From Escherichia coli (GTDB lineage Bacteria > Pseudomonadota > Gammaproteobacteria > Enterobacterales > Enterobacteriaceae): a stretch of DNA of 64,000 bases. The first letter of the stretch is position 1; the number at the start of each line of letters is the position of its first letter. The position numbers and the translations under genes are program-made. Under the pieces are notes generated by a model, which did no database searches, was not told the origin of the DNA, and saw nothing but the letters and a program-made list of their open reading frames with translations. The DNA lies in the NCBI GenBank assembly GCA_025336685.1, contig GCA_025336685.1_4717.1; one strand, written 5' to 3'. Shown here in pieces: positions 1 to 63,980 of the stretch.

Positions 1-61
1 TTCCAGTCTTTTACAACAGCAGGAAGTCGGCTATTGTAACCTTCAGGCAATCTCTCAATCA
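1..61 (-). CDS. hypothetical protein, 5' fragment (gene continues beyond window start)
   Basis: ATG at c(59..61) preceded by AGGAG about 9 nt upstream; reads MIERLPEGYNSRLPAVV... to the window edge; ATGA-type overlap with the stop of 55..492. Confidence 0.45.
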
Positions 62-492: not shown

Positions 493-571
493 CAGTTAGC
501 TCCTAAATAGCGCTACAACTAATTTTTAATGGAAGGGAATATGTTTCCCTTCCTTGGGTTAGTTTAATGCG

Positions 572-847
572 TCATGCAGCTTTACAGCTCGCGTAACATA
601 CCAGTGTTCCGTTGTTGATTGCCTCAACAACATCCTGGGTCAGTTTGGTCGCAAGTTTATTATCCGCACTCGGTACGTAATAACCTTCTCCTGTTTCAGT
701 GACTAGGCGATAACGTACTAATCCTACCGCACGCTCGACGCGTAGCACCTTTTCAAGTTTGTGTTTGATGATCTTCGTCAGGCTGACGGCGTCTGATGCG
801 TAGATTGCTTTATAAACCTTGTTCTTTGCTGTCGGTTTCATCAACAT
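572..847 (-). CDS. hypothetical protein (about 91 aa)
   Basis: ORF track gives 572..910; internal ATG (M22) has AAGGAAA RBS and removes the overlap with 870..1703. Confidence 0.5.
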   Translation of the reverse strand: MLMKPTAKNKVYKAIYASDAVSLTKIIKHKLEKVLRVERAVGLVRYRLVTETGEGYYVPSADNKLATKLTQDVVEAINNGTLVCYASCKAA

Positions 848-869
848 GGTTTCTGTTTTCCTTGGTTTA

Positions 870-1703: not shown

Positions 1704-1780
1704 CGATGATCTCTCTTTGTTATTTCTACCGATAACGCGGCATAAGGGGACAATGATGTCCCCGTGTTAGAATCAACTAC

Positions 1781-2638: not shown

Positions 2639-2639
2639 G

Positions 2640-2930
2640 TTAACTCCCTCTGTGGTGCGAAAACAAAACATCTAATTGCTCCCGTTGTTCTTTTAAGTAT
2701 GCGGGAAGCTGGTCTTCCCGTACCGTTCCGATTTCCAACGTGATATACCAGCGTTGTTCGGAAGCCTGCCATTGAAAACTGCTCTGTAACCGCAGGATGC
2801 TAGGATCGTGTACCTTGCTTGCACTGTAACGGTTGAACCAATTCAGGTATCCTGCTTTCCCTTCCTCATCAGCAACGTAACGCTGCACGCTGTTCTTCCC
2901 TTTGTTTTCGTATCCTGTTGCGTGTATCAT
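2640..2930 (-). CDS. hypothetical small protein
   Basis: ORF track 2640..2984; internal ATG (M19) with AGGAGA RBS gives ATGA overlap with the stop of 2927..3709. Confidence 0.5.
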   Translation of the reverse strand: MIHATGYENKGKNSVQRYVADEEGKAGYLNWFNRYSASKVHDPSILRLQSSFQWQASEQRWYITLEIGTVREDQLPAYLKEQREQLDVLFSHHRGS

Positions 2931-9159: not shown

Positions 9160-11754
9160 TTATAACGTGACTGTACCTAATTTGGTTGTCTTATTGAGAT
9201 TGATGACAGAGATCTGGGTATCGCTGGTCGTAATCGTTCCGATGTTAACGCGCTGCCCTTTATCATCTTCTTGCTTGTGGATGGTTAACTCCAATTCTAA
9301 CTGGTTACCGTTAGGAACAACGGAAACGTACCACGTTTTATTACCTGGCGAACTATTATAGTCTTTTAGGTTATAATGGCCTTTAGGTAAAGTCATGGCC
9401 TTACCAGCAAACAAGCAAGCGATGTCTTCGTTGATGTAGATATCGTAACCGGAAGCAGCAACGACCGTAGAAACCATGTAGACATGTTTGACGGTACCTG
9501 CGAGGTATTCGGCTACGCTTGGCCCATATGCTCTGAATACCTGTCCGCCATTGGATAAACGGTACGCTTCCCCAAGGTCGACGTACCCCAGACCCCATAC
9601 CGGATGGACGTTGTAACGACGTCCGCTGCTGGCCAAATACTCATAAAGGTCATCTACCGATAACCCAACCCACGCACCACTGGCGTTCTTAGCACCACGG
9701 AATTGAAAATCGTTTGCGTTTCCTGGAGTAGCAACGCGCACGGACATCGCCCCGGCGATTAACCAACCATCAGCGCATTTACGATACCCTAATGGTCCCC
9801 ACGCCCCCAGAGTGTTGTCAATGTTATTGATTTGGTCCCGAAGCGTGTAAGTTACCGTTGTGATGACCCCCGTTACGGTAATGTTCCCTTCCCGAGCGCT
9901 GGTCGTCACTTCAGACGTCATGATAGCCGCCTTCCTGGAGACAGGATCGTACACCGATATGAACATCAAGCAGGGGGCCCCTGTGGACGCTGGAGGAACC
10001 ACGATAGAGCCGCGTATAACGGAGTATCTCTCAAGCTTCGGCGACGTGTAGGTATCCCAACAAAGTTTGGCCGCTCTGTCGAGTTCTGCCTGCGTGATGC
10101 TTATCGATGCCCCCTTTAAGGCTAACGTATCAGGGTCGACCTCAACCCTGCTGCTTAATCTCCCTTCCTGTAGCCAGCTGCCAGTCACTATCGTCTGGTC
10201 GTCGCTCATGTGAATTGTCGCGAAACGTTCGCTCACTGAACCGCCTACGTGGACGCGACTGGTTGGCGGGAATCCCATCACATCGACCACGCTGTTCTTA
10301 TAGCGATAACTCAAATCCCAATCAGCGGTTATTAACCGCTTTTCGAAATTGCTCTGACCCCCTGGGATGCGGGATAAGACATAGACCTTGTTCTTCGCCG
10401 TGAAGCCAACGAAGCCGTGTGGACCACAGGACCCAACAACGCGGTCCTTGATGTTAATCCAGTTCCCCGCCTCGTACGCGGATATTGGGGTGAGTTTTGC
10501 AAGTTCGTCGAAGACATTACCAGCGTAGTCACCAATGCGATACGATCGAACCATCGGCGAGGCCAGGTTATCATTCACACAGCTGGTAACCAGACCGTCC
10601 TCGCGAATGACCATGTTCCCGGTAAGGTTGGCCCCACCCCATACCCAGAATCCGTCTTTATAATCACGGTCACGAGTTGACATCGTACAAGGGCCACGAA
10701 AGGACACCGAACCATCGGAGTTCACTTGTAATGACGGTGTTCCAGCATTGGGACTTAATGTCCATTGCTTCGTATCCAGGTTCAAATCGACGTACCAGAT
10801 CGTTGTCCCCTGATCGGCGATATTCACGGTACTGTTAGTGTACCATGCCGTCGTGCAGTAGATTCGCGCAATGTTACCTTTTACAACAGCGTAATTTCTA
10901 ACACCCGCACGAATAGGGACAAGCGTCGTTAATTGACTAGGGTACGCTGTATGGTTTAACACTTCCCAGAAAAGAATATGGTCGAGGTTGGTTTTCGTCG
11001 TTCCCTCAAAAATCTTTCCACTAAACCCGGTTTCTTTGGTGAACTGTACGGCCGCACCATTTTTAATGTCCGATAACATACAGGTATGTACATCGAGCCC
11101 GTTTTTCCCTTCATACGCCCACCAGACTAACAGGTACACTTTGTTTTTGTAGACGAACGTACTACAGCGCGCCATGCTGTCGGTAATACCCTCTACCGAC
11201 CCGGTACACATGGCGGCGACATGCTTCTCTACGTTGAATGTGCCGTTAGTCAGAACGATGTAGGGCTGTGTGTTCTCGTCGTTTGCGTCCATCGCGACAC
11301 CCATCATCACGCCGTGGTTATGACACCAGACTGATTGTGGGATTTTAGGTAGTGCTGTAGGGTTGTACTGGCGACTGGTACCTATGGCGGTATCGAGCAG
11401 CCCTTCACCATTGTTTTTACAGATAGCGTAATACACCCCGTTTTTCATGCTGTTGGATGCAGAGCGAAGGATGGAAACACTCCCGTCTGCTTCCTGACAG
11501 ATTCCGTAGGTACGACGTTCGGTCATGGCTATCGCGCCATCAGCTGACCCTTCGATGGCGAGAGGGAAGTAACTTTGATCGCCAATTTGTTCGATATCGG
11601 TTACGTCAATATCAATGTACTTTTCCATCTCGGTGTTGAACTCTGCGGTGCTGTACGCGCCGAGATCGCCAGCCTTTAACCCTGTTGGATTGCTTCGACT
11701 AGCGATACGTTCGGTAACGCTGGTCACCAGTTCGCTAAATTTTTTCATTGCCAT
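9160..11754 (-). CDS. large tail-associated structural protein (possible tailspike or receptor-binding protein)
   Basis: 864-aa ORF, ATG with GAGGTG RBS, placed between two tail-fibre genes; no catalytic motif recognised. Confidence 0.65.
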   Translation of the reverse strand: MAMKKFSELVTSVTERIASRSNPTGLKAGDLGAYSTAEFNTEMEKYIDIDVTDIEQIGDQSYFPLAIEGSADGAIAMTERRTYGICQEADGSVSILRSASNSMKNGVYYAICKNNGEGLLDTAIGTSRQYNPTALPKIPQSVWCHNHGVMMGVAMDANDENTQPYIVLTNGTFNVEKHVAAMCTGSVEGITDSMARCSTFVYKNKVYLLVWWAYEGKNGLDVHTCMLSDIKNGAAVQFTKETGFSGKIFEGTTKTNLDHILFWEVLNHTAYPSQLTTLVPIRAGVRNYAVVKGNIARIYCTTAWYTNSTVNIADQGTTIWYVDLNLDTKQWTLSPNAGTPSLQVNSDGSVSFRGPCTMSTRDRDYKDGFWVWGGANLTGNMVIREDGLVTSCVNDNLASPMVRSYRIGDYAGNVFDELAKLTPISAYEAGNWINIKDRVVGSCGPHGFVGFTAKNKVYVLSRIPGGQSNFEKRLITADWDLSYRYKNSVVDVMGFPPTSRVHVGGSVSERFATIHMSDDQTIVTGSWLQEGRLSSRVEVDPDTLALKGASISITQAELDRAAKLCWDTYTSPKLERYSVIRGSIVVPPASTGAPCLMFISVYDPVSRKAAIMTSEVTTSAREGNITVTGVITTVTYTLRDQINNIDNTLGAWGPLGYRKCADGWLIAGAMSVRVATPGNANDFQFRGAKNASGAWVGLSVDDLYEYLASSGRRYNVHPVWGLGYVDLGEAYRLSNGGQVFRAYGPSVAEYLAGTVKHVYMVSTVVAASGYDIYINEDIACLFAGKAMTLPKGHYNLKDYNSSPGNKTWYVSVVPNGNQLELELTIHKQEDDKGQRVNIGTITTSDTQISVINLNKTTKLGTVTL

Positions 11755-30289: not shown

Positions 30290-31723
30290 TTACTTTTTCG
30301 ATGACGCCTTCTCAAGAATCTTGAAAAAGGTCATACCTATACCGACAACAGCCGCGGTTATACTCGCAGCGGCTTTCCAAACATCGACGTTACGTTGACG
30401 TCGTGCTTCTTCCGCTTCACGTTGTCTTTTTGCCTCTTCATCACGTCGACGTATCTCAGCAGCAAACTCGTCATGCTTACGTTTGGCTTCTTCGTCTCGA
30501 CGACGAAGTTCAGCGACGAATTCTTCATGTTTGCGTTTAGCCTCATCATCACGACGTTTTAAATCAGCTTGATAATCTTCGTGTATTTGTCTACGTAGAT
30601 CATCTTGACGTTTCATTTCGGCTTGGTGTTGTTCCATCCTACGTTTTTGTTCGTCTTTAAGCTGATCGAGTTCGGCTTTATGTTGTTCGTCGCGCAGCTT
30701 TGCGTCGGCGCGATGCGCTTCATGCATCTGTGCGATAACTGCCTTGTGTTCATCCGCCATACGTCGCATTTCAGCCATCACCCCTTTAAGGGTTTCTTCT
30801 GACGACTTACGTTCGTAGCTGCGTTGGTCGAAATCATTTTTGTAGGCTTCTTTTTGGATGGGATCGCGCCAATGCAATGCCGATTCACGCGTCGGAAAAA
30901 CATTGTACTTCCACATCTCTTTTTCCAAATCTTCGACCGGTACGAAGATGGAGTCATTATTCCCGAAGGTAACCAACATACCTGGCGCGCCTGCTCCATT
31001 CGTTGGTTTTATTTCGAACGCTTTCCCCAGCACGTTAACCCATAGGCTATACGGATTATGAAAGTCGGGTGGCGTCCAGTGGATAGTGAGTTGCGTTCCG
31101 AGAATCCGGAAACCCTCTGTCTTTCCTGTTAAACTACGCGCACATGTTGCGATGTAGGGGTGATCAATCCCTTTCGTAACATGGTCTGCGCTTTTGTATT
31201 CTCCTTTAACTTTTACGATTGCCACGTTGATTTGCGCGACATAAATAGGTTGATTAAAGTTCAACGTGTTGAGGTCAATTTGACATATCTCGTCCAGCGT
31301 ATCGTACCAGTCTTGCTGGTCTAATAGACGCGGTATTTTCTCTGTGTTAACGATGCGACGGATATGCGGTTTCCTTATCGCGTAACCTGTACCATTTTTA
31401 ACACGGAGTATATCCCGACGTCTACCCGCGTAGACGAAGTTTCTGAATGCACCATTCGCATTAGATACGTCATGGCTGTCAACTATTACAGGACTACGAA
31501 ATTTTGAACGTCGTACGATCCTGAATGTATTACTGTCCTCAACTCTACCAGGAATGTACTGGAACATATTGTCGGAGGTGATAACCAACACGGTATGGCC
31601 GGATTCATTAATACATGCCCACCCTAATTCCAGGTCATACAACGGTTCAGCATAACCGTCAATGCGATATGCGTACCATCCCCACGGTTCGAACGCGGTA
31701 TCACATATTGGCATGGAGGGCAT
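30290..31723 (-). CDS. tail-anchored membrane protein: N-terminal globular domain, ER/K-rich helix, C-terminal TM segment
   Basis: 477 aa, ATG with GGAGGTG RBS; residues about 330-450 are E/R/K/D/Q/H repeats (EEAKRKHEEF..RRRDEEAKRKHDEF..); C-terminal AAASITAAVVGIGMTFFKIL then KASSKK. Confidence 0.75.
   Translation of the reverse strand: MPSMPICDTAFEPWGWYAYRIDGYAEPLYDLELGWACINESGHTVLVITSDNMFQYIPGRVEDSNTFRIVRRSKFRSPVIVDSHDVSNANGAFRNFVYAGRRRDILRVKNGTGYAIRKPHIRRIVNTEKIPRLLDQQDWYDTLDEICQIDLNTLNFNQPIYVAQINVAIVKVKGEYKSADHVTKGIDHPYIATCARSLTGKTEGFRILGTQLTIHWTPPDFHNPYSLWVNVLGKAFEIKPTNGAGAPGMLVTFGNNDSIFVPVEDLEKEMWKYNVFPTRESALHWRDPIQKEAYKNDFDQRSYERKSSEETLKGVMAEMRRMADEHKAVIAQMHEAHRADAKLRDEQHKAELDQLKDEQKRRMEQHQAEMKRQDDLRRQIHEDYQADLKRRDDEAKRKHEEFVAELRRRDEEAKRKHDEFAAEIRRRDEEAKRQREAEEARRQRNVDVWKAAASITAAVVGIGMTFFKILEKASSKK
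30380..30560 (-). repeat. imperfect tandem repeat of about 54 nt inside 30290..31723
   Basis: Repeated cttacgtttggcttcttcgtctcgacgacgaagttcagcgacgaattcttcatg-type units encoding the RRRDEEAKRKH(E/D)EF(V/A)AE(L/I) repeats. Confidence 0.5.
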
Positions 31724-31931
31724 CGCTCACCTCCATCAGATTGAAAATTATCATGCATAACGCATTTCCCTTTTCTTGTTCTTATCAAACTGACAGCCGA
31801 CGGTTTCCAGTATCGCCCCCAGCGCGAGAACGACCTTACGTGTTGTCTATGCCTTATTAATCGCAGGCTTCTGTCACCTAGGTAATGTAAGCGTCAAATT
31901 TTTTCTATTCGCAACGATAAACGGCATAAAT

Positions 31932-31960
31932 CTCCCCCAACCCTTACGGGCTGAGGGAGG
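31932..31960 (-). terminator. conserved hairpin element, degenerate copy, 3' of major structural gene
   Basis: CTCCCCC-AA-CCC-TTAC-GGG-CTGA-GGGAGG about 95 nt downstream of the stop of 32057..34279. Confidence 0.4.
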
Positions 31961-32056
31961 CTGACTTATGTATCACGGTGCCGGATGAATGTCCGCAATG
32001 AAACCATCCGCAACGTTGTCGTCAAGAATATCATCCAACGAAGCAGCTACGGTAGT

Positions 32057-38214: not shown

Positions 38215-39117
38215 TTAGAAATTATTGCCGAACCGGTTATGGTTGTATGGTTGGTAGTGTCCGTAATTGCCTGGGAAGCCACCATACGTCGTAGGCTCCG
38301 GTTTAGGGACTTCCATAATCGGATTTTTAGAATTGATCGCCATCACGTAAAGGGTTACGGGTGATGCTGCGTGGCCCATTTCGACGACCACACGGCGGAT
38401 ATAATCAATGTATGCTGTTATTGCAGGCGTCAGTTTGTCTCCTTCGGTAGTTATAACGGTGCCGTCGGAAAGAATCTCACGAACCGCGCACCATTTACCA
38501 AGATGAACTCCTTGCTGCGGCTTTACTCCAGCAGAGATAGAGAGATAGGTATCGTACGTCGTTTGATGATACGGATGACTATAAATAGATTCCGCTTTGT
38601 TTTCGTCTTTCCCTAAGTACTCGCCTTGCTTAGGAGTATGAGTTGATATCATATCGGTATTTTCCACGAATGTCTTTCCTTCGAGTTGTTTGATTAATCG
38701 TTTAACCGATTCAGTTATGTTGTTGTGTCTAGGGATCAGCTTTAAGTAAACAGTCGGTAACTGGATTGTTGACCCATCACTACTGCGCGGATAAGATAAT
38801 TTGTAAAACTGTTCAAAAATCCGCCGTAACGCTTCGTTGTCTGAAGTTGCCAATTTAACATAGGAGCATCGTCCTTTAGCATTGGGATTGTAGAGAAGGA
38901 GAATAACGTCTTCGTCAGTACGTGTATCCTGAGGATGACAAGCGATGTAGTGAATGGGAATAGCCGTATCTTTTTCGTCTCCCGGTTTGATAGACAATGA
39001 AAAATCATGAGTTTCTTTTAACGTTCGTAACGTGCAGGATGCGTCGTCACTATTAAGTAAGAACACACCGAAACGCACGCTTTCGTATGCTGACGGGTCG
39101 CGTATTAATAAGGTCAT
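38215..39117 (-). CDS. hypothetical protein, paralogue family C
   Basis: ORF track 38215..39195 (TTG); ATG at M27 has AAGGAG RBS; shares HxTTYDxYL(S/T)I(S/T)(A/G)GV...G(K/E)W..(V/I)REI..DG block with 39203..39976. Confidence 0.65.
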   Translation of the reverse strand: MTLLIRDPSAYESVRFGVFLLNSDDASCTLRTLKETHDFSLSIKPGDEKDTAIPIHYIACHPQDTRTDEDVILLLYNPNAKGRCSYVKLATSDNEALRRIFEQFYKLSYPRSSDGSTIQLPTVYLKLIPRHNNITESVKRLIKQLEGKTFVENTDMISTHTPKQGEYLGKDENKAESIYSHPYHQTTYDTYLSISAGVKPQQGVHLGKWCAVREILSDGTVITTEGDKLTPAITAYIDYIRRVVVEMGHAASPVTLYVMAINSKNPIMEVPKPEPTTYGGFPGNYGHYQPYNHNRFGNNF

Positions 39118-39202
39118 GTTCGGCTCCTTGATTACGATAAGGATGATTGCGGTTTTGTGGTGCTGGTAGGGCCCTAAACAAAGGAACCCTACCAATATTA
39201 GG

Positions 39203-39976
39203 TTATTCAGGATCGGCGTAGAAATGGTGAGGATAGCCGGAGTACGATCCTGCGTTACCGGCTATGGATTCTTTCTGGGAATCGACGACGAGCGCATAGA
39301 ACTGTCGGGAATTTGTTAGCGTTGAGAAATAAGCGGAAAGGACTTTTTCATTCAACGCATCGCAAGGTAGACAGGTGCGACCGCAAAACGTAACGATACG
39401 GCCGTCAGGATAGATCTCACGAATCATTCTCCACTCACCGATATCCACTGGTGATGGTGCTGCTACACCACCTGTTATCGTTAAGTAACGATCGTACGTG
39501 GTATGGCATTCAGGATGAATATAGATCGGCTTGTTCGTTTCGACAGGTTCCGAAGTGTCTCGACGACTAAGGAGTTCAACGACTTCAAGATAAATCGTTG
39601 GTAGATCGCGGAGAATACCGGTGTTACGACGTTTCTTTGTGATTCGCGGACGAATCTCGTTAAGAGCGTATTCGAGCTTACGTTCAGCTTCGTACGCATC
39701 GAGTTTTATTAGGTGGCCCGGTTCATCGGAATGATCCTGAGTTATGTAAACGAAATACGTGTTGTCTTTTGCAGCGCGAAAGATTCGAGCGACCTTAAAT
39801 GTTTCTACAGTGCGATAACCAAGGCGCGATTGATTTTCCACAGGAGAAAATATCCAATGTCGTCCTTCGTCCGCCCCAACAATTTCGTTGAAACTATCCG
39901 TTTGTTCTGGGACCTGGTAGTCAGCCATTAATGTATCAAGAGCGTCATCGGCCAGTTTGGTGTAAATATCTGTCAT
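39203..39976 (-). CDS. hypothetical protein, paralogue family C
   Basis: 257 aa, ATG with GAGGA RBS. Confidence 0.65.
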   Translation of the reverse strand: MTDIYTKLADDALDTLMADYQVPEQTDSFNEIVGADEGRHWIFSPVENQSRLGYRTVETFKVARIFRAAKDNTYFVYITQDHSDEPGHLIKLDAYEAERKLEYALNEIRPRITKKRRNTGILRDLPTIYLEVVELLSRRDTSEPVETNKPIYIHPECHTTYDRYLTITGGVAAPSPVDIGEWRMIREIYPDGRIVTFCGRTCLPCDALNEKVLSAYFSTLTNSRQFYALVVDSQKESIAGNAGSYSGYPHHFYADPE

Positions 39977-51352: not shown

Positions 51353-52642
51353 TTATGCTTTTTCGGTCGCTGCGTTGAAGTATTTCGCAGCAGCAAATAC
51401 AGCATCCGCATACTGACGTACAGAGGCACGGAGGATCTTAGTTCCTAATACAGAGCTTAAACGAGCCATTTCTGTTACAGCTGTGATATAAGGACGTACG
51501 GTTTCACGATCAGCCTCAGGTAACTTGTCGAGCATTTCGCCCCACTTCGTTTTGATCTGCATTCCGTTGAGTTTAGCGTCTCGTCCTACAGAGCGCGCCA
51601 AACTTTCAACTTTATGCAAATACGTCGGTTCCACCATACGGAATGCCTTCAGATATGCAGTCAATGCGCTTTTCAGCTCATTCCCATCGTGGAAAATATT
51701 CGCATTTTCGATTTTATCTGTTACGGTGTCAACAACTTCAATATGAACATCCTTCACCAAAGCACATGCTTTAACGACATCCTTCTCTTTTTCTAGCGCA
51801 TCCAACCCTTTAACGACATATTGTTTTCCACCACTTTCTGGAAGTCTGAACGCCCTCAGTGCGGCTTTAGTGGCCTGAAGATACTCGTCTAGGACACGAT
51901 CAAGCGTTGTTAAATCAGTTAGGACATTAATGTCGTAGTTGATATCGCCGATCTTAGTAAATAAGAAATCTGATATCGTCGCACTTGCAGCCAGTTGTTC
52001 GATATGTTTGCTAACGGATGCCGCATCAACAGATTTTGCGTTCGGGAACATATTAACCATATTCCCGGTAGGCTTCTCTAGTTGTTTGATCTGACGTTCC
52101 CCTTTATTGACTTCGGATGCAATTTTGGTGATCTCAGCATAAGCCAGAACGAGATTCTTGAACAACATCTGGAACAGTTTGAACAGTTGCTCAGCAATAT
52201 TTGCAATGATTACCCAAACTGCGTATAACGCTTGTGCTGCGCGTTCTTTAAAGCCTTCCAGTACGATAGCCTGTCCTTCCACTAATTTATCATTAGCCTG
52301 GAACATGTCTTCATCAGACATCCCCAGGTTTGCTGCTGATGTCGAAGCGATCTGACGGATAAGTGCGACGTCGCTCACACGTGCTTCCGAGATCGTTGGT
52401 GCGATCATGTACGCTGTATCTTCCAGCGTTGCTGAGGTACGCACTGCAATTTCAGCCAGTTCGCTGGATTCATCGATTGTCTCGTCGGTATGTCGAATCA
52501 CCAACTCAACTTCACCCTCTTCAATTTCTGCGTTAGGATCGTGTTGCTCCGTCGGAATCGTCGCGAGAAGATCTTCGGCGCTGAGCAATGCGAGTTCGAA
52601 TGCGTTTTTATTGACGTTGTCAAAAAGAGAAATACGTGCCAT
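51353..52642 (-). CDS. head internal (inner-body-like) protein candidate, paralogue family D
   Basis: 429 aa, ATG with AAGGAA RBS; SDVALIRQIASTSAANLGMSDEDMF block; acidic N-terminus with repeated (A/L)xE. Confidence 0.75.
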   Translation of the reverse strand: MARISLFDNVNKNAFELALLSAEDLLATIPTEQHDPNAEIEEGEVELVIRHTDETIDESSELAEIAVRTSATLEDTAYMIAPTISEARVSDVALIRQIASTSAANLGMSDEDMFQANDKLVEGQAIVLEGFKERAAQALYAVWVIIANIAEQLFKLFQMLFKNLVLAYAEITKIASEVNKGERQIKQLEKPTGNMVNMFPNAKSVDAASVSKHIEQLAASATISDFLFTKIGDINYDINVLTDLTTLDRVLDEYLQATKAALRAFRLPESGGKQYVVKGLDALEKEKDVVKACALVKDVHIEVVDTVTDKIENANIFHDGNELKSALTAYLKAFRMVEPTYLHKVESLARSVGRDAKLNGMQIKTKWGEMLDKLPEADRETVRPYITAVTEMARLSSVLGTKILRASVRQYADAVFAAAKYFNAATEKA

Positions 52643-55460: not shown

Positions 55461-55991
55461 TTAAAAGCCCTTAAAACCCGGTGCCATAGGTTGCCCAAAC
55501 ACCGCATTCAAAGTACATATGATGTCCTGGATGCCATTGTCCCAATGGAGCCAAGTACGCACCATCTCTTCGTCTGACAACGTGATATAACTCATAAGTT
55601 TACCGCTGCTTTCCAGACGTTGGTGCGAACTTAGCGACTGACGATCTGACCAGTTATCAATCAGTTGACCAGCGATCTGAACGTTCGTGTCTCGTCTACC
55701 TGTGTGAATGAACCGCAGTGTATCACGGATAAACTCCAGACTGGTGAAGTTCAGATTTGGGTTATGGCTGTTCATTTCCACCCAGTCGGTAATGGGGTAC
55801 ATCAAACGATAAAGGGTAGAAAGAACCTGACGCTCGTATTTCCAGTCATCGAGAGGAGTACCGTCGACCAGACGCTGATACAAACTAACAACGTCGCGAT
55901 CGTAGTTCTCCTGACGTTTTACGCCGTTAACCGGAAATCCGAAGAATCCGGTACCGTATAACGTTAAAGGGACGTCACGAAGTGCACTCAT
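55461..55991 (-). CDS. hypothetical protein (about 176 aa)
   Basis: ORF track 55461..56123; ATG at M45 forms ATGA overlap with the stop of the upstream ORF; sequence before it overlaps 55988..56464 out of frame. Confidence 0.6.
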   Translation of the reverse strand: MSALRDVPLTLYGTGFFGFPVNGVKRQENYDRDVVSLYQRLVDGTPLDDWKYERQVLSTLYRLMYPITDWVEMNSHNPNLNFTSLEFIRDTLRFIHTGRRDTNVQIAGQLIDNWSDRQSLSSHQRLESSGKLMSYITLSDEEMVRTWLHWDNGIQDIICTLNAVFGQPMAPGFKGF

Positions 55992-56464
55992 ACAGCCGCC
56001 TCTTCTTTTCGTTTGATGTCGTAACGAAGTTTCTTCAGTCGCTCTTCGTGATATTCGATCTGCTGCTGGATTTTTGGATCGTTGCCCGCATTCTGTTGCT
56101 TTTGCTTCAGTGACAAAATCCAATACTCCAACGCTTGGGCTTCTTCTTTGGCTGCTTGTAACGACGCTTCTTCACGTTCGCTGCGCCAGATGCGATAACG
56201 GTAAATAAGCGTGTTGGTCATTTGAGTGTCGGACCATGAACCCATGCGCATCGGGTCAGTATTACCCGCGTTGTACAACCCATTACCAACACCGTCTTCA
56301 TCAGAAACCACAACATCCGGGATTTTATCCAACCCAGCAAGGATCTGTTGTTTCTGTCCACACAGCACCTCGGTGGCAATGGCGAAACCGTACATGTTGG
56401 CGGTCAGGTAAGCAATCTCGTTTTTGGTGAAGAACTCACCAAGTGCTTTATCACCACCTGGCAT
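55988..56464 (-). CDS. hypothetical protein, 3' segment of a possibly interrupted gene
   Basis: 158 aa from the first ATG; the same frame stays open and strongly codon-optimised for 66 more codons upstream (to in-frame TAG at about 56663) with no canonical start. Confidence 0.5.
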   Translation of the reverse strand: MPGGDKALGEFFTKNEIAYLTANMYGFAIATEVLCGQKQQILAGLDKIPDVVVSDEDGVGNGLYNAGNTDPMRMGSWSDTQMTNTLIYRYRIWRSEREEASLQAAKEEAQALEYWILSLKQKQQNAGNDPKIQQQIEYHEERLKKLRYDIKRKEEAAV

Positions 56465-56662
56465 GCTTTCGCAGATGACTGTCGCACGAAGCAGCGTACG
56501 AGCGTAGCTAACGTAGAAGCCCAGGGACTCAACAAGACGTACCAGAGCGGCTTCTTTGAAACTCAGACCGTCGGCAGCAACATCGATTTCCAGGTTTTTG
56601 TTAACACGTTTAACAATTTCTGGAATCAGATCAACAGCATTACGTAGCGCTATGAACGTTTT

Positions 56663-57132
56663 CTACCCAGCTTCCAGAGCGAACGCGGGTTAAACGCTGA
56701 TGCAGATCCTTGTCAGCGAGTTTCCATAAGGCGCTTTCCCTTTTGGAGAAGCGGAGCGGATGTCTCGTAGGCGGAATCGCGGTGTTGTTGATTTCGTCAC
56801 GGATCGATTCAAGTGCGTCAGCAACACCGGCAGGTTTAAAAGCGGCTTCAAACTGCGAATGAATTCTTTAAAATCAATTGCCATGAGTGAGCAATTCCGC
56901 GCTATTTCGAACAGGTTACGTGTGTTAACGAATCTGTGGGACGTTTCCGGTACGGAGGCCTGGAGGATCGTCAGAAGATCAACCCGAGGTTGACGAACTG
57001 TTGATTTTTCCAGCTGTTTGAAGCTTACTGTGGTCCCTTGATCCAAGCTGTGGAAATAGAAGGTCACCATCTCTTCAGCTTGTCGATGATGATCAACTGC
57101 ATTGCAAGGGCTTCAGCCATGACTTTCACGTG
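56663..57132 (-). other. 470-bp interval interrupting coding sequence (frame-disrupted gene, intervening sequence, or recoding region)
   Basis: Lies between the TAA stop of 57133..58020 and the in-frame TAG preceding the optimised 55988..56662 frame; contains a 126-aa ORF (56690..57070) with poor codons and a second open frame entered by -1 shift at T_TTA_AAC (about 56834..56840). Confidence 0.4.
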
Positions 57133-58020
57133 TTATAGCCGACAAACGACGTCCGATTCATGCCTGATGGCTTCCTGGTTAGCCTTAGAGATGATATAGG
57201 TGGAGGCGATTGCTCCAGAAGAAGGGATCTTTGTGCTCGCTGCAGCTTTTGCGGCATTGATGCGCGCAGCATTAACAGCCTTGCGGATACCCTCTTTATC
57301 CATACGTGAGATTCGTTTGTGTTCACGAACCAGGTCACTAAGCAGGATCATGTCGCTCCAGAAAGACAGCTCACCCGCCATCATGCGATGCCAACGTGCT
57401 CGCCAGGTGTTCTGTGGGCCGCCGATCGCTAAAATCGACGCAAGCACTTCCGCTGGTGAACTTGCAATACGCATGCTGATGTTCAATGGCATTTTCATCG
57501 TTGCCTGACCATCGGTCAGCGTCACGGTTAAGAACTTGCCGGTGACCGCGTTTGCATCTTTGTTCAGCAATTCGATCGCTGCGTCGCTGGCCCCAACATC
57601 GAGGCTATTTTTTTGTTTCCCCAGCAGGTTGAATCCTTTGTCATCAAGGAAAACAAGGCTTTTGCTATCCGCACTTTCCAGTGCTAATTTAACAGCCTTA
57701 TCCATCATGTTAGCGTTACGGTTTGGATTCACACGACCCAGCGTTTTATCGACACTGATATTACCCACCTGCATGATGGTGTTCAACGCCAGTAAATAGA
57801 ACCCGGTATACATATTTTCAGCGGTGCGCATGCAGTTGCCTAACGCATTGCGTGCGTCGCTATAATACAACTCACGTTCAAAGATCAACGGCGCGATAAC
57901 GCGTGAAGGTTGTGAGAGTTCAACCAGCGAACCTGGCTGGATAAGTTTATTAACTTCGTAGACTTTAGCGATACCGGACGCAACAACGTTAACAGCGTCG
58001 GCAATTTCTGATGCTACCAT
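57133..58020 (-). CDS. hypothetical protein (295 aa), possible 5' part of an interrupted gene
   Basis: ATG with AAGGA RBS; good codon usage. Confidence 0.7.
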   Translation of the reverse strand: MVASEIADAVNVVASGIAKVYEVNKLIQPGSLVELSQPSRVIAPLIFERELYYSDARNALGNCMRTAENMYTGFYLLALNTIMQVGNISVDKTLGRVNPNRNANMMDKAVKLALESADSKSLVFLDDKGFNLLGKQKNSLDVGASDAAIELLNKDANAVTGKFLTVTLTDGQATMKMPLNISMRIASSPAEVLASILAIGGPQNTWRARWHRMMAGELSFWSDMILLSDLVREHKRISRMDKEGIRKAVNAARINAAKAAASTKIPSSGAIASTYIISKANQEAIRHESDVVCRL

Positions 58021-58054
58021 ATTGAAATCCTTATTTACAAATAAAGGAAAGAAA

Positions 58055-58264
58055 ATGTCTAATTACTACGACCAAGCTATTCAAACCATTCAGGAAGATA
58101 ATGCGTCGTTAACACCCGAAGCTGTGGAGGCAGCGGGCAATGCGGTGTTATTCACTGATTCAGATTGGGCAATGGCGCGGAAGAATATTCGTACCAGTGT
58201 CGGTCAAGGGACATACGGACAGTATCGCCAGACGGTATCGGAATGTGTCACCTATTCCGGGTAA
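58055..58264 (+). CDS. small ORF (about 69 aa), possible N-terminal part of a frameshift fusion with 58140..59258
   Basis: ORF track 58022..58264; ATG at M12 has AAAGGAAAG RBS; good codon usage; ends GGG TAA. Confidence 0.5.
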   Translation: MSNYYDQAIQTIQEDNASLTPEAVEAAGNAVLFTDSDWAMARKNIRTSVGQGTYGQYRQTVSECVTYSG

Positions 58265-59258
58265 CAGTCCGATTCCGATTAACCGCGATCATGCCGGTAT
58301 TACCTTCTTCACACGACCTAATTTACATCTTACCGACGCGAACTTAAAACGAGATCGACGTTTGTGGTCGTTACGTACGGATAACCCTAACAGTATTCAG
58401 GCTGTTGTCCGTGACTACTTGGACCCTGTGGGTGCCAGAAAGCGGAACCATCGAGGACGTGCCATCGTCGATGAGCGCAATCCATTCATAAGTATACTGA
58501 CGGACAACCTGACGGATATCAGCGGTTTCAATGACATGGAAATGCAGGTCTATCAGGGTAAACCGGGATTACGCCAAGAAACCGTTGTGATGGCTGACGG
58601 TTCAGTGGATATGTTTCAACCCTATAACCTGAACGCGACGTTCAAGAACATCATGGGTAACCCCATCATGTTCCTTCATTATATTTGGTTGATTTACATC
58701 GCTGGTGTGCATAATGGTGAACTGACGCCAAGCCCTCAGGCCATCATCGACAATGAAATGGATTACTGGACAAGATGTTATCGTATCATCCTGGATCCGA
58801 CTGGGATGTATGTTCGTTATATCTTCGCACCGACCGCGATGTTTCCTGTCGGGTTACCGACTGGTAATATGGCTAACTACAGCATCGATAAACCCTTCAC
58901 GCAAGATAACGAACGTATCACTATTCCATACCAAGCGGTTGGTAACAACGCATTCGATGAAATTCTGAAGGATGAATTCAATCGACTTGTCCTGATGTTC
59001 TATTACGGTGAGAACGATACCCGTACGTTCCTTGAAGATGAGGAGTTGGTACCTATTTCACCCTACGAGCGTCGAATCATGTCGTATCGTGTCGATATGT
59101 ATCCATTTATTCATCCGTTGACCTCAGAGCTTCTTTGGTTCGTACCCGCTGATGCTTACAACGAATTCTATCTGGATCTTGAGCCATCGGCGTTACCACC
59201 GGATACGTTCAGTCGCGATCTTGTCCGTACCACCATTCCGCAAAATTACGAGGGATAA
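58140..59258 (+). CDS. hypothetical protein (start ambiguous)
   Basis: 372-aa ORF; ATG at 58140 has GGAGG RBS, but codons 1-35 are rare-codon-rich and overlap 58055..58264; clearly coding only from about 58265 onward. Confidence 0.65.
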   Translation: MRCYSLIQIGQWRGRIFVPVSVKGHTDSIARRYRNVSPIPGNSPIPINRDHAGITFFTRPNLHLTDANLKRDRRLWSLRTDNPNSIQAVVRDYLDPVGARKRNHRGRAIVDERNPFISILTDNLTDISGFNDMEMQVYQGKPGLRQETVVMADGSVDMFQPYNLNATFKNIMGNPIMFLHYIWLIYIAGVHNGELTPSPQAIIDNEMDYWTRCYRIILDPTGMYVRYIFAPTAMFPVGLPTGNMANYSIDKPFTQDNERITIPYQAVGNNAFDEILKDEFNRLVLMFYYGENDTRTFLEDEELVPISPYERRIMSYRVDMYPFIHPLTSELLWFVPADAYNEFYLDLEPSALPPDTFSRDLVRTTIPQNYEG

Positions 59259-59261
59259 TAA

Positions 59262-60377
59262 ATGAGCGTAACCAACAAAGATCTTGCTGAACAGCTCAAT
59301 CGCTATATGCTTTCACCCATTGAAATGCAGGCTGTTGCAAGCGATATGATCCGTTTGGCTTCCGATGGTGAGTTAACCCTGGTTGACCCCAGCTGTCCGT
59401 TTGTTTATCTGCTGGAGGTTGCAACGGCGACGGCTGCGAACCAGAACGCGCGGGATGAATCCCGTGTTCGCGAACTGTATCCGAAACTTGCAACCAACTG
59501 GAGCCAGCTCTATCGTTGGATGTATGACGAGTCGTACGTCGGACGTTTCGCAATGCCGGGTAAAACGGAAATCATTTATTCGTTAGGGTATCAGGAAATC
59601 CTCGATCGTGCTGTAGAGATTCCAAACACCGCCGCATCCGATGATTTAAGCCGTTCTTACAGCCGTAAGTTAGTGATACCACGTACGACGGTGTTTACGG
59701 TAGCCGGAATGGATTTCGGGCTGCATTATCCCATCGAAATCCAAGTGCAGGCGCACGACCAGATACGCGTTGTTTATAACACTGATAACATCAGCCCGCT
59801 GCAAACCTTGGAGAGTAACCAAGTTGAGTATGGTGTTGTTCGTGTAAAAGCGGGTAAAGTGTTGGTGATGCGTATCCCACTGTTCCAGTTTAAAACGCTG
59901 GTAAAAGATGTGCCGTTTAACAGCGTTCACGGGATGAACAGCAGCATTACCTTCGAAGATCAGTTTTACCATTGTCGTGCGTACATGTCGTCGGATAACG
60001 ATACCTGGACGGAGATAGCGACAACCCACAGCCAGCAGATCTACGATCCGTTAACACCGACCATCGCGTTACAAGTAGAAGGGAACAAACTTAACTGGCG
60101 TGTTCCTGAAATTTATTTGTCTCAAGGTACGATGGATAAAAGCACCATTCGACTCGAGGTGTTGACGACGAAAGGGAAAATCAGCGTCGACCCGTCTGAT
60201 TACGACGTGACTGATTGGAAAGATAATTACATCGATCTGTCACCAAAAGCCGAACAGAAATACAGTGCGCCGCTAAGTGCGTTCAACATTAAAGGGATTT
60301 ATAGTGAAGGGGCGTTGTCGGGTGGACGATCTGCGTTAACATTCGAGGAACAACGTGAACGCGTTATGGCGAAGTGA
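59262..60377 (+). CDS. hypothetical protein (371 aa)
   Basis: ATG with GAGGGA RBS. Confidence 0.75.
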   Translation: MSVTNKDLAEQLNRYMLSPIEMQAVASDMIRLASDGELTLVDPSCPFVYLLEVATATAANQNARDESRVRELYPKLATNWSQLYRWMYDESYVGRFAMPGKTEIIYSLGYQEILDRAVEIPNTAASDDLSRSYSRKLVIPRTTVFTVAGMDFGLHYPIEIQVQAHDQIRVVYNTDNISPLQTLESNQVEYGVVRVKAGKVLVMRIPLFQFKTLVKDVPFNSVHGMNSSITFEDQFYHCRAYMSSDNDTWTEIATTHSQQIYDPLTPTIALQVEGNKLNWRVPEIYLSQGTMDKSTIRLEVLTTKGKISVDPSDYDVTDWKDNYIDLSPKAEQKYSAPLSAFNIKGIYSEGALSGGRSALTFEEQRERVMAK

Positions 60378-61711
60378 ACAAAACCGGAGTACCGATCACG
60401 GGAACACAGGTAGAGCTGGTGCTTCAAGATGCGGGTTATGGGATGGTAACCACTATCGACAACGTAACCAATCGTTCGTTCCTGGCAACCCGAGATTTAC
60501 CGCAATTGAGCGACAGCGTGCCGCAAGCCGGTTCGTTGATGGGGTCTTTCTATACTTCAGCCGCAGCGTTGGTGAAAAGTAAGTTTGTCGCCGATAACGG
60601 CGATCGTATCACGATTAAACCGGACTGTCTGTATCGCGACAGTAACGGAAGTATCGCACTGTTGTCGGACGATGAAATTGACCGTATTAATGCAGGTAAC
60701 TCTGATGCGAAGTTGAACGCGGTAAACAACGCCATGTTGTTTTACAGCCCGTTTCATTACGTGTTGGATGCGACAAGCGATTTCGACATTCATGCTTATT
60801 ACCTGGATGCTCCTAAGATCGGCACACAAGCATTCCTCGACGCGAACGAGACAATCCCGTTAACCGCTATGGTGACCGGATACCGTCTGGATCGTATCGC
60901 TGAAGGATATCGTCTAAGCCTCATTGTAGAAGGTAACGACGCATGGAAGGCGCTCGACGATAAAAACGTGCACGTGCAGCTGGGGTTCAATCCGCGGGGT
61001 GAGGGTGATTATGCGACGATGTTAGCATCACCGACAACCGATGAACAAGGTCGTCGTTTGTTCACCTTCGATATCACCACGAATTATGATTTCACGCGAA
61101 TCCTGGCCGATGATTCCACGGCGTATGAACCATATATCGCATTGACCTCTTTCTCGATGTATGAATCGACACCGCGGGATTACTGGGCATCACTGCAGCA
61201 GTATTTGGAAATCTTCCATGTGGTGACGGATTATGCGCCGGAAGATGTCGACGGTATTTTACACAGTGCTTCCGATAATTACCTGGTTAAGAAACTTACG
61301 CTTCAAAATGGGTATTGTTTCTACCGTGAACGTCTCACCGCAACCTTTGGTTATGATCTGGATGGTCTTTGGATGCGCTCTCGTACGGTAGCCTCGGAGA
61401 TTACGTATAAACGTTACACCGAGAACATTCCGTGGGTGTATGAAGAAGATATTCCAGCGACGGATGAGACCGGTTCGGTTATCATTGAACAAGGTGATGA
61501 CGGTACGCTGTCAGTTAAATACCTGCATCGTAAAGGTGACCCGAAATTAAACAGTGATGGAAGCCAAGCCTATCGTTATCTGAAAGGCGACATCATGAAA
61601 GATAATTACGGTAATCCGATCCTGTCGATGAACGTGAAGTTCTGCGTAGCCTGGACATGTTCTTTATTGATGCGTCGTATCTGCTTTAGCGAACGATACG
61701 GACGTGATTGA
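60374..61711 (+). CDS. hypothetical protein (445 aa)
   Basis: GTG start overlapping the upstream TGA stop (GTGA). Confidence 0.65.
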   Translation: MNKTGVPITGTQVELVLQDAGYGMVTTIDNVTNRSFLATRDLPQLSDSVPQAGSLMGSFYTSAAALVKSKFVADNGDRITIKPDCLYRDSNGSIALLSDDEIDRINAGNSDAKLNAVNNAMLFYSPFHYVLDATSDFDIHAYYLDAPKIGTQAFLDANETIPLTAMVTGYRLDRIAEGYRLSLIVEGNDAWKALDDKNVHVQLGFNPRGEGDYATMLASPTTDEQGRRLFTFDITTNYDFTRILADDSTAYEPYIALTSFSMYESTPRDYWASLQQYLEIFHVVTDYAPEDVDGILHSASDNYLVKKLTLQNGYCFYRERLTATFGYDLDGLWMRSRTVASEITYKRYTENIPWVYEEDIPATDETGSVIIEQGDDGTLSVKYLHRKGDPKLNSDGSQAYRYLKGDIMKDNYGNPILSMNVKFCVAWTCSLLMRRICFSERYGRD

Positions 61712-62256
61712 GTATCGTAACACGATTCCTACGCAGCTTATCGGAGTGGATCAAGAACGATATCATCACATTCAGGAATTTCTGTTATGAGGAAACAGAG
61801 ATTTCACTGTATCCTAAACAATCGTTGGGGTATGTGGATGTTATTGTCGAAAACGGATTGGAAACAACGCTTCCTGCCGCTCTATCGTTCAACGTGACGC
61901 TTTACTTACCAGCTAAGCAATACGCGGATTTGGATCTCCGTCAAGTCCTTCAAGCGATGGTATCGAAAGTCATCAACGAATGCTTAACGTCCCGTACGGT
62001 GGCTAAAGCAGAAATGATCGCGATGATTCGTGAGGAGGGTGGTGACGACATCCTTAACGTTGAAATCGATGATTTTGGACCAGGTAAGAACCTCAGTGTT
62101 TATACTGCGAAGAACGATGGTGTTCGCTGCGCGGTGAAGAAAGAGCTTTATGTGAAAGCGGATGGTATCTTGTCCGTACGTGAAGCGATCGATGTAAGTT
62201 TTGTGAAACATGCACAAAGCAACAGTTCGGCATTAGCGCAAGGCCTTCGTGTCTAA
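61708..62256 (+). CDS. hypothetical protein (start uncertain)
   Basis: 182-aa ORF starting at TTG overlapping the upstream stop; first 40 codons rare-codon-rich; an RBS-preceded ATG exists in the +1 frame near 61787. Confidence 0.5.
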   Translation: MSIVTRFLRSLSEWIKNDIITFRNFCYEETEISLYPKQSLGYVDVIVENGLETTLPAALSFNVTLYLPAKQYADLDLRQVLQAMVSKVINECLTSRTVAKAEMIAMIREEGGDDILNVEIDDFGPGKNLSVYTAKNDGVRCAVKKELYVKADGILSVREAIDVSFVKHAQSNSSALAQGLRV

Positions 62257-62277
62257 AACAAAATAGCATGAGCATAA

Positions 62278-62309
62278 CCCTCCTCCAACCCGTAAGGGAA
62301 GGAGGAGGG
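62278..62309. terminator. conserved hairpin element, canonical copy
   Basis: CCCTCCTCC-AA-CCC-GTAA-GGG-AA-GGAGGAGGG between convergent genes 61708..62256 and 62319..63980. Confidence 0.6.
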
Positions 62310-62318
62310 AATATGTTG

Positions 62319-63980
62319 TTATCTTACGTTGCTGCTATTCTGCTGTTCGCTGAACCAACAGTACACCTTGAGATCGGTACCGTATTTCAATGCGATATAC
62401 GCATTCAGTGCGGCACAGAACAAAGACGCGAATGCCCATATCAGTGAAGGATCAACATCTTCCGTTACCACCCGGGGAGTATTATCCGGTTCCCATGATG
62501 GAGAACTGTCCATGAACGTCGTGTACCATTCCCGCCGTTGTTCTTCAGTGGTAAAGTCACTATGAGGCTCCAGCGCTTCTTTTGCCAGACGTCGATATTC
62601 GAACACATACGTTGCGAAAGCCGATGAGTTACCAGATTCGCCTTCATAGTTCGGATCCACCGCACAACAGAGTTCTGTGGAATTTAACAAAGCAATCGCT
62701 TGTATGATGCTGTCGGCAGTGCCTGCACTATAGAGCTCGATAGACCGCGAAAGCTTTTCACAGAACGTATTTAACGCGGTAGGATTGGACACCTGAAGGT
62801 CGAGGCCTAATGTCCACGGATAGTTACTGAACACACCCGTAAACCGCGGCATAACACCCAACAGATGTTGTCCGATTACGGCACGGTTATAAACAGCCCG
62901 GTTATAGACTTGAAACGCAGCCTCCAAGGCTTGGTTATAATGACGACGAAGTTCATCACGCGAGTTGCGGAATCTGTTTGCCGCAAGACTTGTGGCTGCG
63001 ACGCTACAAACATCGTAATCGGTGGACGAGAGCACGGTTTCGTTAAGATCGAACGCTTCCTGTTTCAATGTTCCGCTAACCGCTGTCGCTTCGCTGTTTG
63101 CTTTATCGACAACAGTACTCAAAGCGTTGATGTAACGTTTAGCTCGGACCTCCAACCATTGTGCGATGCCGAGAATATCCACCGCAGCTTTAGCAAGATC
63201 GCGGGCGTTCACGATTTCGTTCTTCAACGCACCTAAACCTTTATTCTCAGGCGAAGAGGCTTGTTGACGAATCATGCTGTTCAACATGGTAAGCAGATTA
63301 TCCAACTCATGCCCACTGACCTTGTTACGCGCATCGGTAACTGGTCCTTGCAGGAATTTACGGCAACCGTCGTTGTATCGAATCAGTTTATCCACATCGA
63401 TAGATTCGTTCGTGGATTCCTTGAACTGATCCTTCAATTCTTCACGGTAGTCATGGATTTCACTTGCGAGATTATCGATAGTGATGCCGTTATGTCCAAG
63501 AAGAACTTTATTGAAGTTACCTTTCTCGAATGCAAGAGCAAGACCTTCACGAATCTTAGCGAGTTTATCCTGATCGAGTTCGCGACCGTTCGATAGCTCT
63601 TTCACTTCCGAGCTGATTAGTGCCGCAACGTTACCCAGATTGTCGGTAACCCCTTTGAACGCTCCCGACCAGATCGTTCCTGCTCCAGCGTATTTCGCAA
63701 TGGTCTGAATACCGACGGTGTGCAACGACGCTAAACGTTTCTTTGTGCCTTCGGTAAGCAGAGCGTCTTTAGCTCGCGTAAGTTGACTGTTATTCGCTTC
63801 CGCCTGCTGAATCGCTGCTTTCGCACTTCCATTACGCCAGCTCTTAACCAGCCAATCAACCAAACGTTTTAGGATATTGACGGTGTATTCCATTGTCCGC
63901 CGTAACGTTTCCCACGCGCTTTCTGCGGTATAGATGCCGTACCCTTCCATCTTCGTTGGGTCAAAGAAACCTTCCTGCAC
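62319..63980 (-). CDS. hypothetical protein (at least 553 aa; may extend past window end)
   Basis: ORF begins at GTG without RBS; the frame stays open to the window edge, so the true start may lie beyond 64000. Confidence 0.6.
   Translation of the reverse strand: MQEGFFDPTKMEGYGIYTAESAWETLRRTMEYTVNILKRLVDWLVKSWRNGSAKAAIQQAEANNSQLTRAKDALLTEGTKKRLASLHTVGIQTIAKYAGAGTIWSGAFKGVTDNLGNVAALISSEVKELSNGRELDQDKLAKIREGLALAFEKGNFNKVLLGHNGITIDNLASEIHDYREELKDQFKESTNESIDVDKLIRYNDGCRKFLQGPVTDARNKVSGHELDNLLTMLNSMIRQQASSPENKGLGALKNEIVNARDLAKAAVDILGIAQWLEVRAKRYINALSTVVDKANSEATAVSGTLKQEAFDLNETVLSSTDYDVCSVAATSLAANRFRNSRDELRRHYNQALEAAFQVYNRAVYNRAVIGQHLLGVMPRFTGVFSNYPWTLGLDLQVSNPTALNTFCEKLSRSIELYSAGTADSIIQAIALLNSTELCCAVDPNYEGESGNSSAFATYVFEYRRLAKEALEPHSDFTTEEQRREWYTTFMDSSPSWEPDNTPRVVTEDVDPSLIWAFASLFCAALNAYIALKYGTDLKVYCWFSEQQNSSNVR

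What the first reader, a model, noticed from the sequence alone, without database searches (positions are those of the whole stretch)
58055..58540. Overlapping ORF pair that may be joined by a +1 frameshift at GGG_TAA
A small ORF (58055..58264, good RBS and codon usage) ends GGG TAA. The downstream gene's frame is unambiguously coding only from about 58265 and has no in-frame ATG until about 58536. Its annotated ATG at 58140 has a GGAGG RBS but the intervening codons are rare (cgg, aga, ata, cga) and overlap the small ORF. A +1 shift at GGG_UAA (to GGU AAC) would fuse the two into one protein of about 400 aa. The alternative is a GTG start at about 58245 with a poor RBS.
Basis: inference. Interest (0 to 1): 0.55.

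Follow-up and report, generated by a model that had tools for sequence, protein, structure and literature searches.

The report
Tail-tube-initiator gene split by 2-bp deletion
The two overlapping reading frames are the two halves of one well-known jumbo-phage baseplate gene (the tail tube initiator, Goslar gp62 / phiKZ gp88), separated by a 2-base deletion found only in this sequence and most likely a sequencing or assembly error, not a programmed frameshift.

Summary
The ORF pair exists as described: 58055..58264 ends GGG TAA, and 58140..59258 lies in the +1 frame. The window is a Goslar-like E. coli jumbo phage, 97.8% identical here. In Goslar, in seven metagenomic contigs and in more distant homologues, the same DNA is one uninterrupted gene of about 400 aa. 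That gene is gp62, the tail tube initiator, which has a solved structure (PDB 11lx) and is the phiKZ gp88 homologue.

The window differs by a 2-bp deletion at 58216/58217 (TACGAGGAC to TACGGAC). This removes most of the Glu55 codon. The true frame junction is therefore about 45 nt upstream of the proposed GGG_TAA site. Residues encoded by the +1 frame between 58218 and 58262 (DSIARRYRNVSPIPG) are conserved, and the nucleotide differences there are synonymous only in that frame.

The deleted version was found in none of the three sequence collections scanned. Neighbouring virion genes (gp60, gp61, gp63, gp42) carry their own window-unique 1-2-bp indels. These are deletion-biased and clustered, while substitutions remain synonymous in the ancestral frames.

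The most likely cause is an error in the sequence record. A very recent inactivating mutation is the alternative. Programmed +1 frameshifting at GGG_TAA is not supported. Interest is low.

The parts
58055..58216 (+). Genuine 5' part of the tail tube initiator gene (codons 1-54, frame A), with its RBS AAAGGAAAG just upstream
   Evidence: 96% identical at protein level to Goslar gp62 residues 1-54 (tblastn). Aligned to Goslar, P0001 and P0002.
58216..58217 (+). Site of the 2-bp deletion. Goslar and seven other relatives read TAC GAG GAC; the window reads TAC G GAC. G58217 is the single base left of the Glu55 codon.
   Evidence: Pairwise and 9-way alignments. The 22- and 30-mers spanning the deletion are absent from viral contigs, metagenome contigs and genome contigs. 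The intact 32-mer is present in 3 IMG/VR contigs.
58218..59258 (+). Genuine 3' part of the same gene (codons 56-401 plus stop, frame B). Carries the PF23971 Phage_TTP_15 domain.
   Evidence: tblastn of Goslar gp62 residues 42-401: 96% identity in frame 3. Pfam PF23971 at 3.3e-76. phrog_3196. PDB 11lx_AJ and 36za_hB.
58217..58264 (+). Out-of-frame tail of the small ORF (GQYRQTVSECVTYSG, then TAA), including the proposed GGG_TAA site at 58259..58264. Not a conserved coding frame.
   Evidence: No orthologue has this peptide. The nucleotide differences among relatives at 58246 and 58259 are synonymous in frame B but change Cys/Arg and Gly/Arg in frame A.
58140..58217 (+). Spurious 5' extension of the downstream ORF (MRCYSLIQIGQWRGRIFVPVSVKGHT). 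It is frame B read over frame-A coding sequence.
   Evidence: Codon-usage score is negative in frame B and positive in frame A for 58140..58216. No homologue aligns to this peptide.

Best explanation
58055..59258 is a single gene. It is the orthologue of Goslar gp62 / phiKZ gp88, the tail tube initiator. Six copies of this protein form the ring on the baseplate hub from which the tail tube polymerises. In this sequence the reading frame is broken by a 2-bp deletion at 58216/58217, which creates an apparent 69-aa ORF and an overlapping 372-aa ORF in the +1 frame. The deletion is most probably an error of sequence determination or assembly (a poorly polished, indel-rich patch), so the real phage makes a normal 401-aa protein by ordinary translation.

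Shown here: the identity of the gene, the position of the deletion, and its uniqueness among the relatives examined. Inferred: that the deletion is an artefact rather than a real mutation.
For: Identity of the gene:
- The window is 97.8% identical to Escherichia phage Goslar across this stretch.
- Goslar_00062 is one 401-aa CDS covering both ORFs.
- It matches PDB chains named 'Tail Tube Initiator Protein gp62' (401 aa) and PHIKZ088.
- Its role is described in bioRxiv 10.64898/2026.04.21.720040 and PMC13250141.

The deletion:
- The only length difference from Goslar inside this gene is 2 bp at 58216/58217.
- Goslar and seven metagenome contigs (L004-L010) all keep the two bases.
- Homologues at 99%, 68% and 36-38% identity are single proteins that span the junction.
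- The deleted k-mer is absent from three collections.

Signs of an error-prone patch:
- gp61 has a frame break (~57080-57157), gp63 has two (60371, 61621), gp42 has one (~34813), and gp60 has four frame-shifting indels that net -6 bp. These indels are absent from every relative aligned at the site: Goslar plus 3-5 metagenome contigs for gp60, gp61 and gp63; Goslar, L013 and L015 for gp42.
- They are 1-2 bp long, clustered, and deletion-biased (19 deleted against 5 inserted bases).
- Most other genes in the window have no frame-shifting indel.

Signs that the genes were functional until very recently:
- Window-versus-Goslar substitutions are overwhelmingly synonymous in the ancestral frames on both sides of the breaks. 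The synonymous:non-synonymous counts are gp62 23:5, gp63 136:19, gp61 32:8 and gp60 16:5.
- Window-unique substitutions within 5 nt of indels show no codon-position bias, though the numbers are small.

Tail tube initiator and baseplate wedge proteins are indispensable virion parts by established knowledge. Simultaneous real frameshifts in them would give a non-viable phage.
Against: - No reads or quality values are available, so an artefact cannot be proven.
- The 2-bp deletion is not in a homopolymer.
- Most of the window is free of such indels, so the errors would have to be local.
- The source record could not be identified. There is no exact protein match in the assemblies index and no DNA match in E. 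coli genomes or plasmids.
Confidence: 0.72

Rival explanations
1. The deletion is real and recent. This genome copy is defective, or is carried in a mixed population and complemented by intact genomes. The tail tube initiator gene is a fresh pseudogene, or is expressed as two fragments (1-54 plus junk, and a C-terminal piece from ATG 58140 or GTG 58245).
For: The sequence as given has the deletion. Frame B offers a start with a GGAGG RBS at 58140. Defective genomes do occur in metagenomes. The synonymous substitution pattern fits a very recent event as well as it fits an artefact.
Against: At least four other virion genes have independent unique frame breaks, which is hard to reconcile with a replicating phage. 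PDB chain 36za_hB has the gp62 sequence from residue 37 to 397 as one continuous chain across the junction. A split at residue 54/55 would cut that chain.
Confidence: 0.18
2. The deletion is real and is rescued by low-level +1 ribosomal frameshifting somewhere in the 58113..58261 overlap, for example at GGG_UAA. Only six copies per virion are needed.
For: The overlap geometry allows a +1 shift to give a full-length product. GGG followed by a stop codon is a conceivable P-site slip onto GGU with a slow A site; this is by analogy with prfB CUU_UGA and is my own knowledge. The low copy number per virion is reported.
Against: No orthologue has a frameshift configuration, so nothing has been selected for recoding. 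There is no SD-like element in the 15 nt upstream (TGTGTCACCTATTCC). A shift at GGG_UAA would replace the conserved EDSIARRYRNVSPIPG with unrelated residues. Near 58217 there is no slippery codon: TAC re-paired on ACG. The neighbouring broken genes would each need their own rescue.
Confidence: 0.04
3. Programmed, evolutionarily maintained +1 frameshifting at GGG_TAA is the normal way this gene is expressed.
For: Only the ORF geometry supports it.
Against: The same GGGTAAC (or AGGTAAC in Goslar) sequence is read in one frame as Pro-Gly-Asn inside an uninterrupted ORF in every relative. The solved virion protein has the frame-B residues upstream of the site. Variation at 58246 and 58259 is synonymous only in frame B.
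Confidence: 0.01

Closest known systems
Goslar gp62 (QBO63855.1; PDB 11lx chain AJ, 'Tail Tube Initiator Protein gp62')
   Same: About 96% amino-acid identity over both parts. Same length if the 2 bp are restored. Same neighbours, gp61 upstream on the opposite strand and gp63 downstream. Same Pfam family PF23971.
   Different: The window lacks 2 bp of the Glu55 codon, so the ORF is split. There are a few substitutions (for example N15D, I40M, S80A, I270T, D367A).
phiKZ gp88 (PDB 9xqs chain I), tail tube initiator
   Same: Homologous over query residues 68-382 (E = 3.7e-48). Forms a six-copy ring between the baseplate hub and the tail tube. Functionally analogous to T4 gp48/gp54.
   Different: Shorter (349 aa) and distant in sequence. 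It lacks most of the Goslar-type N-terminal extension, which is the part that forms the 'small ORF' here.
prfB-type programmed +1 frameshift (CUU_UGA_C with upstream SD-like stimulator)
   Same: Here too a sense codon followed by a stop sits at the end of a short ORF, with the continuation in the +1 frame.
   Different: There is no conservation of the arrangement, no SD-like stimulator and no autoregulatory logic. The trans-frame product would lose a conserved segment. The frame break is explained by a deletion 45 nt upstream.

Membership tests
Tail tube initiator, PF23971 Phage_TTP_15 (Goslar gp62 / phiKZ gp88) | Pfam model match above the curated cut-off | tested here: met
   ORF 58140..59258 scores 256.9 bits against a cut-off of 27. 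Goslar gp62 scores 268 bits.
Tail tube initiator, PF23971 Phage_TTP_15 (Goslar gp62 / phiKZ gp88) | Colinear full-length similarity to a protein whose position in the virion has been solved | tested here: met
The only unmatched segment is the out-of-frame 15 residues.
Tail tube initiator, PF23971 Phage_TTP_15 (Goslar gp62 / phiKZ gp88) | Conserved gene neighbourhood (gp61-like upstream on the opposite strand, baseplate wedge gp63 / phiKZ gp87-like immediately downstream) | tested here: met
Tail tube initiator, PF23971 Phage_TTP_15 (Goslar gp62 / phiKZ gp88) | Uninterrupted reading frame | tested here: not met
   A 2-bp deletion at 58216/58217. This is judged to be a defect of this sequence, not of the family.
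Programmed +1 ribosomal frameshift site | The two-frame arrangement and shift site are conserved among orthologues | tested here: not met
   All orthologues examined are single ORFs.
Programmed +1 ribosomal frameshift site | Shift-prone P-site codon followed by a slow A-site codon or stop | tested here: inconclusive
   GGG_UAA is present. GGG to GGU re-pairing keeps two of three pairs. No experimental precedent was checked.
Programmed +1 ribosomal frameshift site | Stimulatory element such as an SD-like sequence a few nt upstream (prfB type) | tested here: not met
   The upstream 15 nt, TGTGTCACCTATTCC, contain no GGAGG/AGGAG-like motif.
Programmed +1 ribosomal frameshift site | The zero-frame sequence up to the shift site is under protein-coding constraint | tested here: not met
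   For 58217..58261 the conserved peptide and the synonymous variation are in the +1 frame, not the zero frame.
Programmed +1 ribosomal frameshift site | A trans-frame protein product is detected | not testable with these tools
   This needs mass spectrometry or a reporter assay on this phage.

The most novel reading that the evidence does not exclude
The 2-bp deletion is genuine in a viable phage. The six copies of tail tube initiator needed per virion would then be supplied by inefficient +1 frameshifting in the 58113..58261 overlap, possibly at GGG_UAA. That would be a leaky frameshift mutant tolerated because the protein is needed in very low copy number.
Probability: 0.03. Interest if true: 0.45.

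Novelty: not a real feature. Interest (0 to 1): 0.07.

Why it matters
It matters mainly for annotation. The pair 58055..58264 and 58140..59258 should be annotated as one gene, the tail tube initiator, with a frameshift or low-quality note. It should not be annotated as two proteins or as a recoding site. The same applies to the gp61, gp63 and gp42 orthologues in this window.

It also shows that an overlapping +1 ORF pair ending in a plausible shift codon can arise from a deletion tens of bases upstream. Comparison with orthologues locates the true junction. No new biology is indicated.

Tried and rejected
- **Identifying the source record.** Exact-protein look-ups of the 372-aa ORF, the 371-aa gp63 fragment and the 441-aa gp58 orthologue found nothing. 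The major capsid protein is identical in many gut-metagenome contigs, but those loci cover only about 8 kb. Megablast against E. coli complete genomes and PLSDB plasmids gave no match.
- **Looking for the deletion elsewhere.** k-mers spanning it were absent from IMG/VR, JGI metagenomes and GTDB genomes.
- **Locating the junction by codon usage.** The 45-nt segment is too short, and the scores for frames A and B are both near zero.
- **PHROG and Pfam on the 69-aa ORF alone.** No hit. The N-terminal extension is specific to Goslar-like phages.
- **Transcriptional slippage or phase variation.** Rejected, because there is no homopolymer or short tandem repeat at 58200..58265.
- **A compensating indel.** Rejected, because gp62 has only one indel against Goslar.
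- **Technical note.** Two scripts failed because loci files are bundled in /data.

Full report
**Observation.**
- An ORF starts at ATG 58055, preceded by AAAGGAAAG, and ends GGG TAA at 58259..58264 (69 aa).
- A second ORF in the +1 frame is open from 58113. It has ATG 58140 behind GGAGG (58126..58130), GTG codons at 58197 and 58245, no further ATG until 58536, and a stop at 59256..59258.
- A +1 shift anywhere in 58113..58261 would give a protein of about 400 aa.

**What the region is.** Megablast places the window in a close relative of Escherichia phage vB_EcoM_Goslar, a nucleus-forming jumbo phage, at 97.8% identity over 57900..59400. In Goslar the same DNA is a single CDS, Goslar_00062, of 401 aa.
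- The protein belongs to Pfam PF23971 (Phage_TTP_15) and phrog_3196.
- It matches PDB chain 11lx_AJ, 'Tail Tube Initiator Protein gp62' (401 aa), and more distantly PHIKZ088, PDB 9xqs.
- The Goslar virion structure paper places six copies of gp62 in the baseplate hub, directly under the first tail tube ring, together with gp203. This is analogous to T4 gp48/gp54 (bioRxiv 10.64898/2026.04.21.720040).
- The phiKZ atlas gives the same role to gp88, and makes the downstream neighbour gp87 (Goslar gp63) the baseplate wedge protein (PMC13250141).

**Where the frames really part.** Alignment to Goslar shows one length difference in this gene. Goslar reads ACA TAC GAG GAC AGT and the window reads ACA TAC G GAC AGT. 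Two bases of the Glu55 codon are missing at 58216/58217.
- tblastn with Goslar gp62 gives residues 1-54 in one frame (58055..58216) and residues 42-401 in the +1 frame (58176..59255).
- The segment 58218..58262 therefore encodes DSIARRYRNVSPIPG in the downstream frame. The small ORF's last 15 residues are out-of-frame read-through.
- Homologues support this. P0001 (401 aa, 99%), P0002 (420 aa, 68%..GTYEDSIARHYRSLTSFPGN..) and P0003-P0005 (36-38%) are all single proteins that run through the junction.
- Among nine aligned sequences, the variable positions in 58217..58262 (58246 T/C, 58259 G/A) are synonymous in the downstream frame. In the small ORF's frame they would be Cys/Arg and Gly/Arg changes.
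- PDB chain 36za_hB carries the gp62 sequence from residue 37 to 397 as one chain across the junction.
- The proposed GGG_TAA site is thus ordinary Pro-Gly-Asn coding sequence in every relative.

**Is the deletion a property of the phage or of the record?**
- Goslar and seven metagenome contigs (L004-L010, from pig-gut and other gut samples) all keep the two bases.
- k-mers spanning the deletion occur in none of IMG/VR, the JGI metagenomes or the GTDB genomes. The intact k-mer occurs in three IMG/VR contigs.
- The deletion is not alone. Relative to Goslar and the other contigs, the window has unique 1-2-bp indels that break or scramble gp60 and gp61 (about 15 indels in 56650..57170). It also breaks gp63 twice (60371, 61621, plus a locally compensated pair at 61684/61746) and gp42 once (34813). 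A further cluster lies at 31675..31996.
- In 55900..62400, the window-unique indel columns identified amount to 19 deleted against 5 inserted bases.
- Most other genes in the window have no frame-shifting indel.
- Substitutions between the window and Goslar are strongly synonymous in the ancestral frames on both sides of each break, as in the intact neighbours. The counts are gp62 23:5, gp63 136:19, gp61 32:8 and gp60 16:5.
- Window-unique substitutions lying within 5 nt of the indels show no codon-position bias, though the numbers are small.

Taken together, these genes were under normal purifying selection until essentially the present. The frame breaks look like local, deletion-biased consensus errors. 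gp62 and gp63 are indispensable structural components and gp60 and gp61 are virion-packaged proteins, so several simultaneous real frameshifts would give a dead phage. I therefore consider a sequencing or assembly artefact the best explanation (about 0.7) and a real, very recent inactivating mutation the main rival (about 0.2). This step is inference, because no reads are available.

**Programmed frameshifting.** The defining features fail.
- No orthologue has the two-frame arrangement.
- There is no SD-like stimulator upstream of GGG_UAA (TGTGTCACCTATTCC).
- The zero frame is not the constrained frame for the 45 nt before the site.
- The trans-frame product would replace 16 conserved residues with 15 unrelated ones.
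- The only feature in its favour is the codon pair itself.

A residual possibility cannot be excluded without experiments but is unlikely (about 0.03-0.05). If the deletion is real, leaky +1 shifting might supply the six copies needed per virion.

**Comparison with the known, and novelty.** The gene is a member of the tail tube initiator family (Goslar gp62 / phiKZ gp88). This rests on the Pfam score, full-length colinearity with a solved protein, and synteny. Only the intact frame is missing. Nothing here is new, and the 'frameshift site' is not a real feature. The practical consequence is for annotation: one gene with a frameshift or low-quality flag, and the same for the gp61, gp63 and gp42 orthologues.

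**Dead ends.** The source record could not be identified. Codon usage could not place the junction. The 69-aa ORF alone hits no family.

Noticed in passing
window 59262..62256 (+): The orthologue of Goslar gp63 (997 aa; baseplate wedge, phiKZ gp87 homologue) is split over three frames: residues 1-370 at 59262..60371, 372-787 at 60374..61621, and 788-997 at 61621..62253. The causes are window-unique changes: GGT/GGC to AA at about 60371, a 1-bp deletion at 61621, and a +2/+1 pair at 61684/61746. At the first break the TGA stop overlaps a GTG (AAGTGAAC), which mimics a coupled gene pair.
   Followed up: partly
window 56650..57170 (- strand genes): A dense cluster of about 15 window-unique 1-2-bp indels, mostly deletions. 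It scrambles the 5' part of the gp60 orthologue and the 3' part of the gp61 orthologue (both virion-packaged, host-injected proteins in Goslar). gp61 appears as a 295-aa ORF at 57133..58020 instead of 368 aa.
   Followed up: partly
window 34813 and 31675..31996: One extra G at 34813 splits the gp42 orthologue (206 aa in all relatives). A further cluster of small window-unique indels lies at the start of the gp40 orthologue and in the gp40-gp41 spacer. Both are absent from contigs that are 98% identical (L013, L015).
   Followed up: partly
window 51353..52642 (-): The gp56 orthologue is about 19% diverged from Goslar at nucleotide level, against 2-5% for its neighbours, with locally compensated indels. 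This is probably a mosaic or fast-evolving gene.
   Followed up: no
window 1..2676, 9480..11415, 38247..39972: These stretches do not align, or barely align, to Goslar, so they look like module replacements relative to Goslar. ORFs 870..1703, 1781..2671, 38215..39195 and 39203..39976 have no Pfam hit.
   Followed up: partly
PDB 36za chain hB (not in the window): The chain named 'Tail Tube gp217' in this entry has the sequence of Goslar gp62 residues 37-397, not that of a separate paralogue. This may be a label mix-up in the deposited entry or in the tool's table.
   Followed up: no
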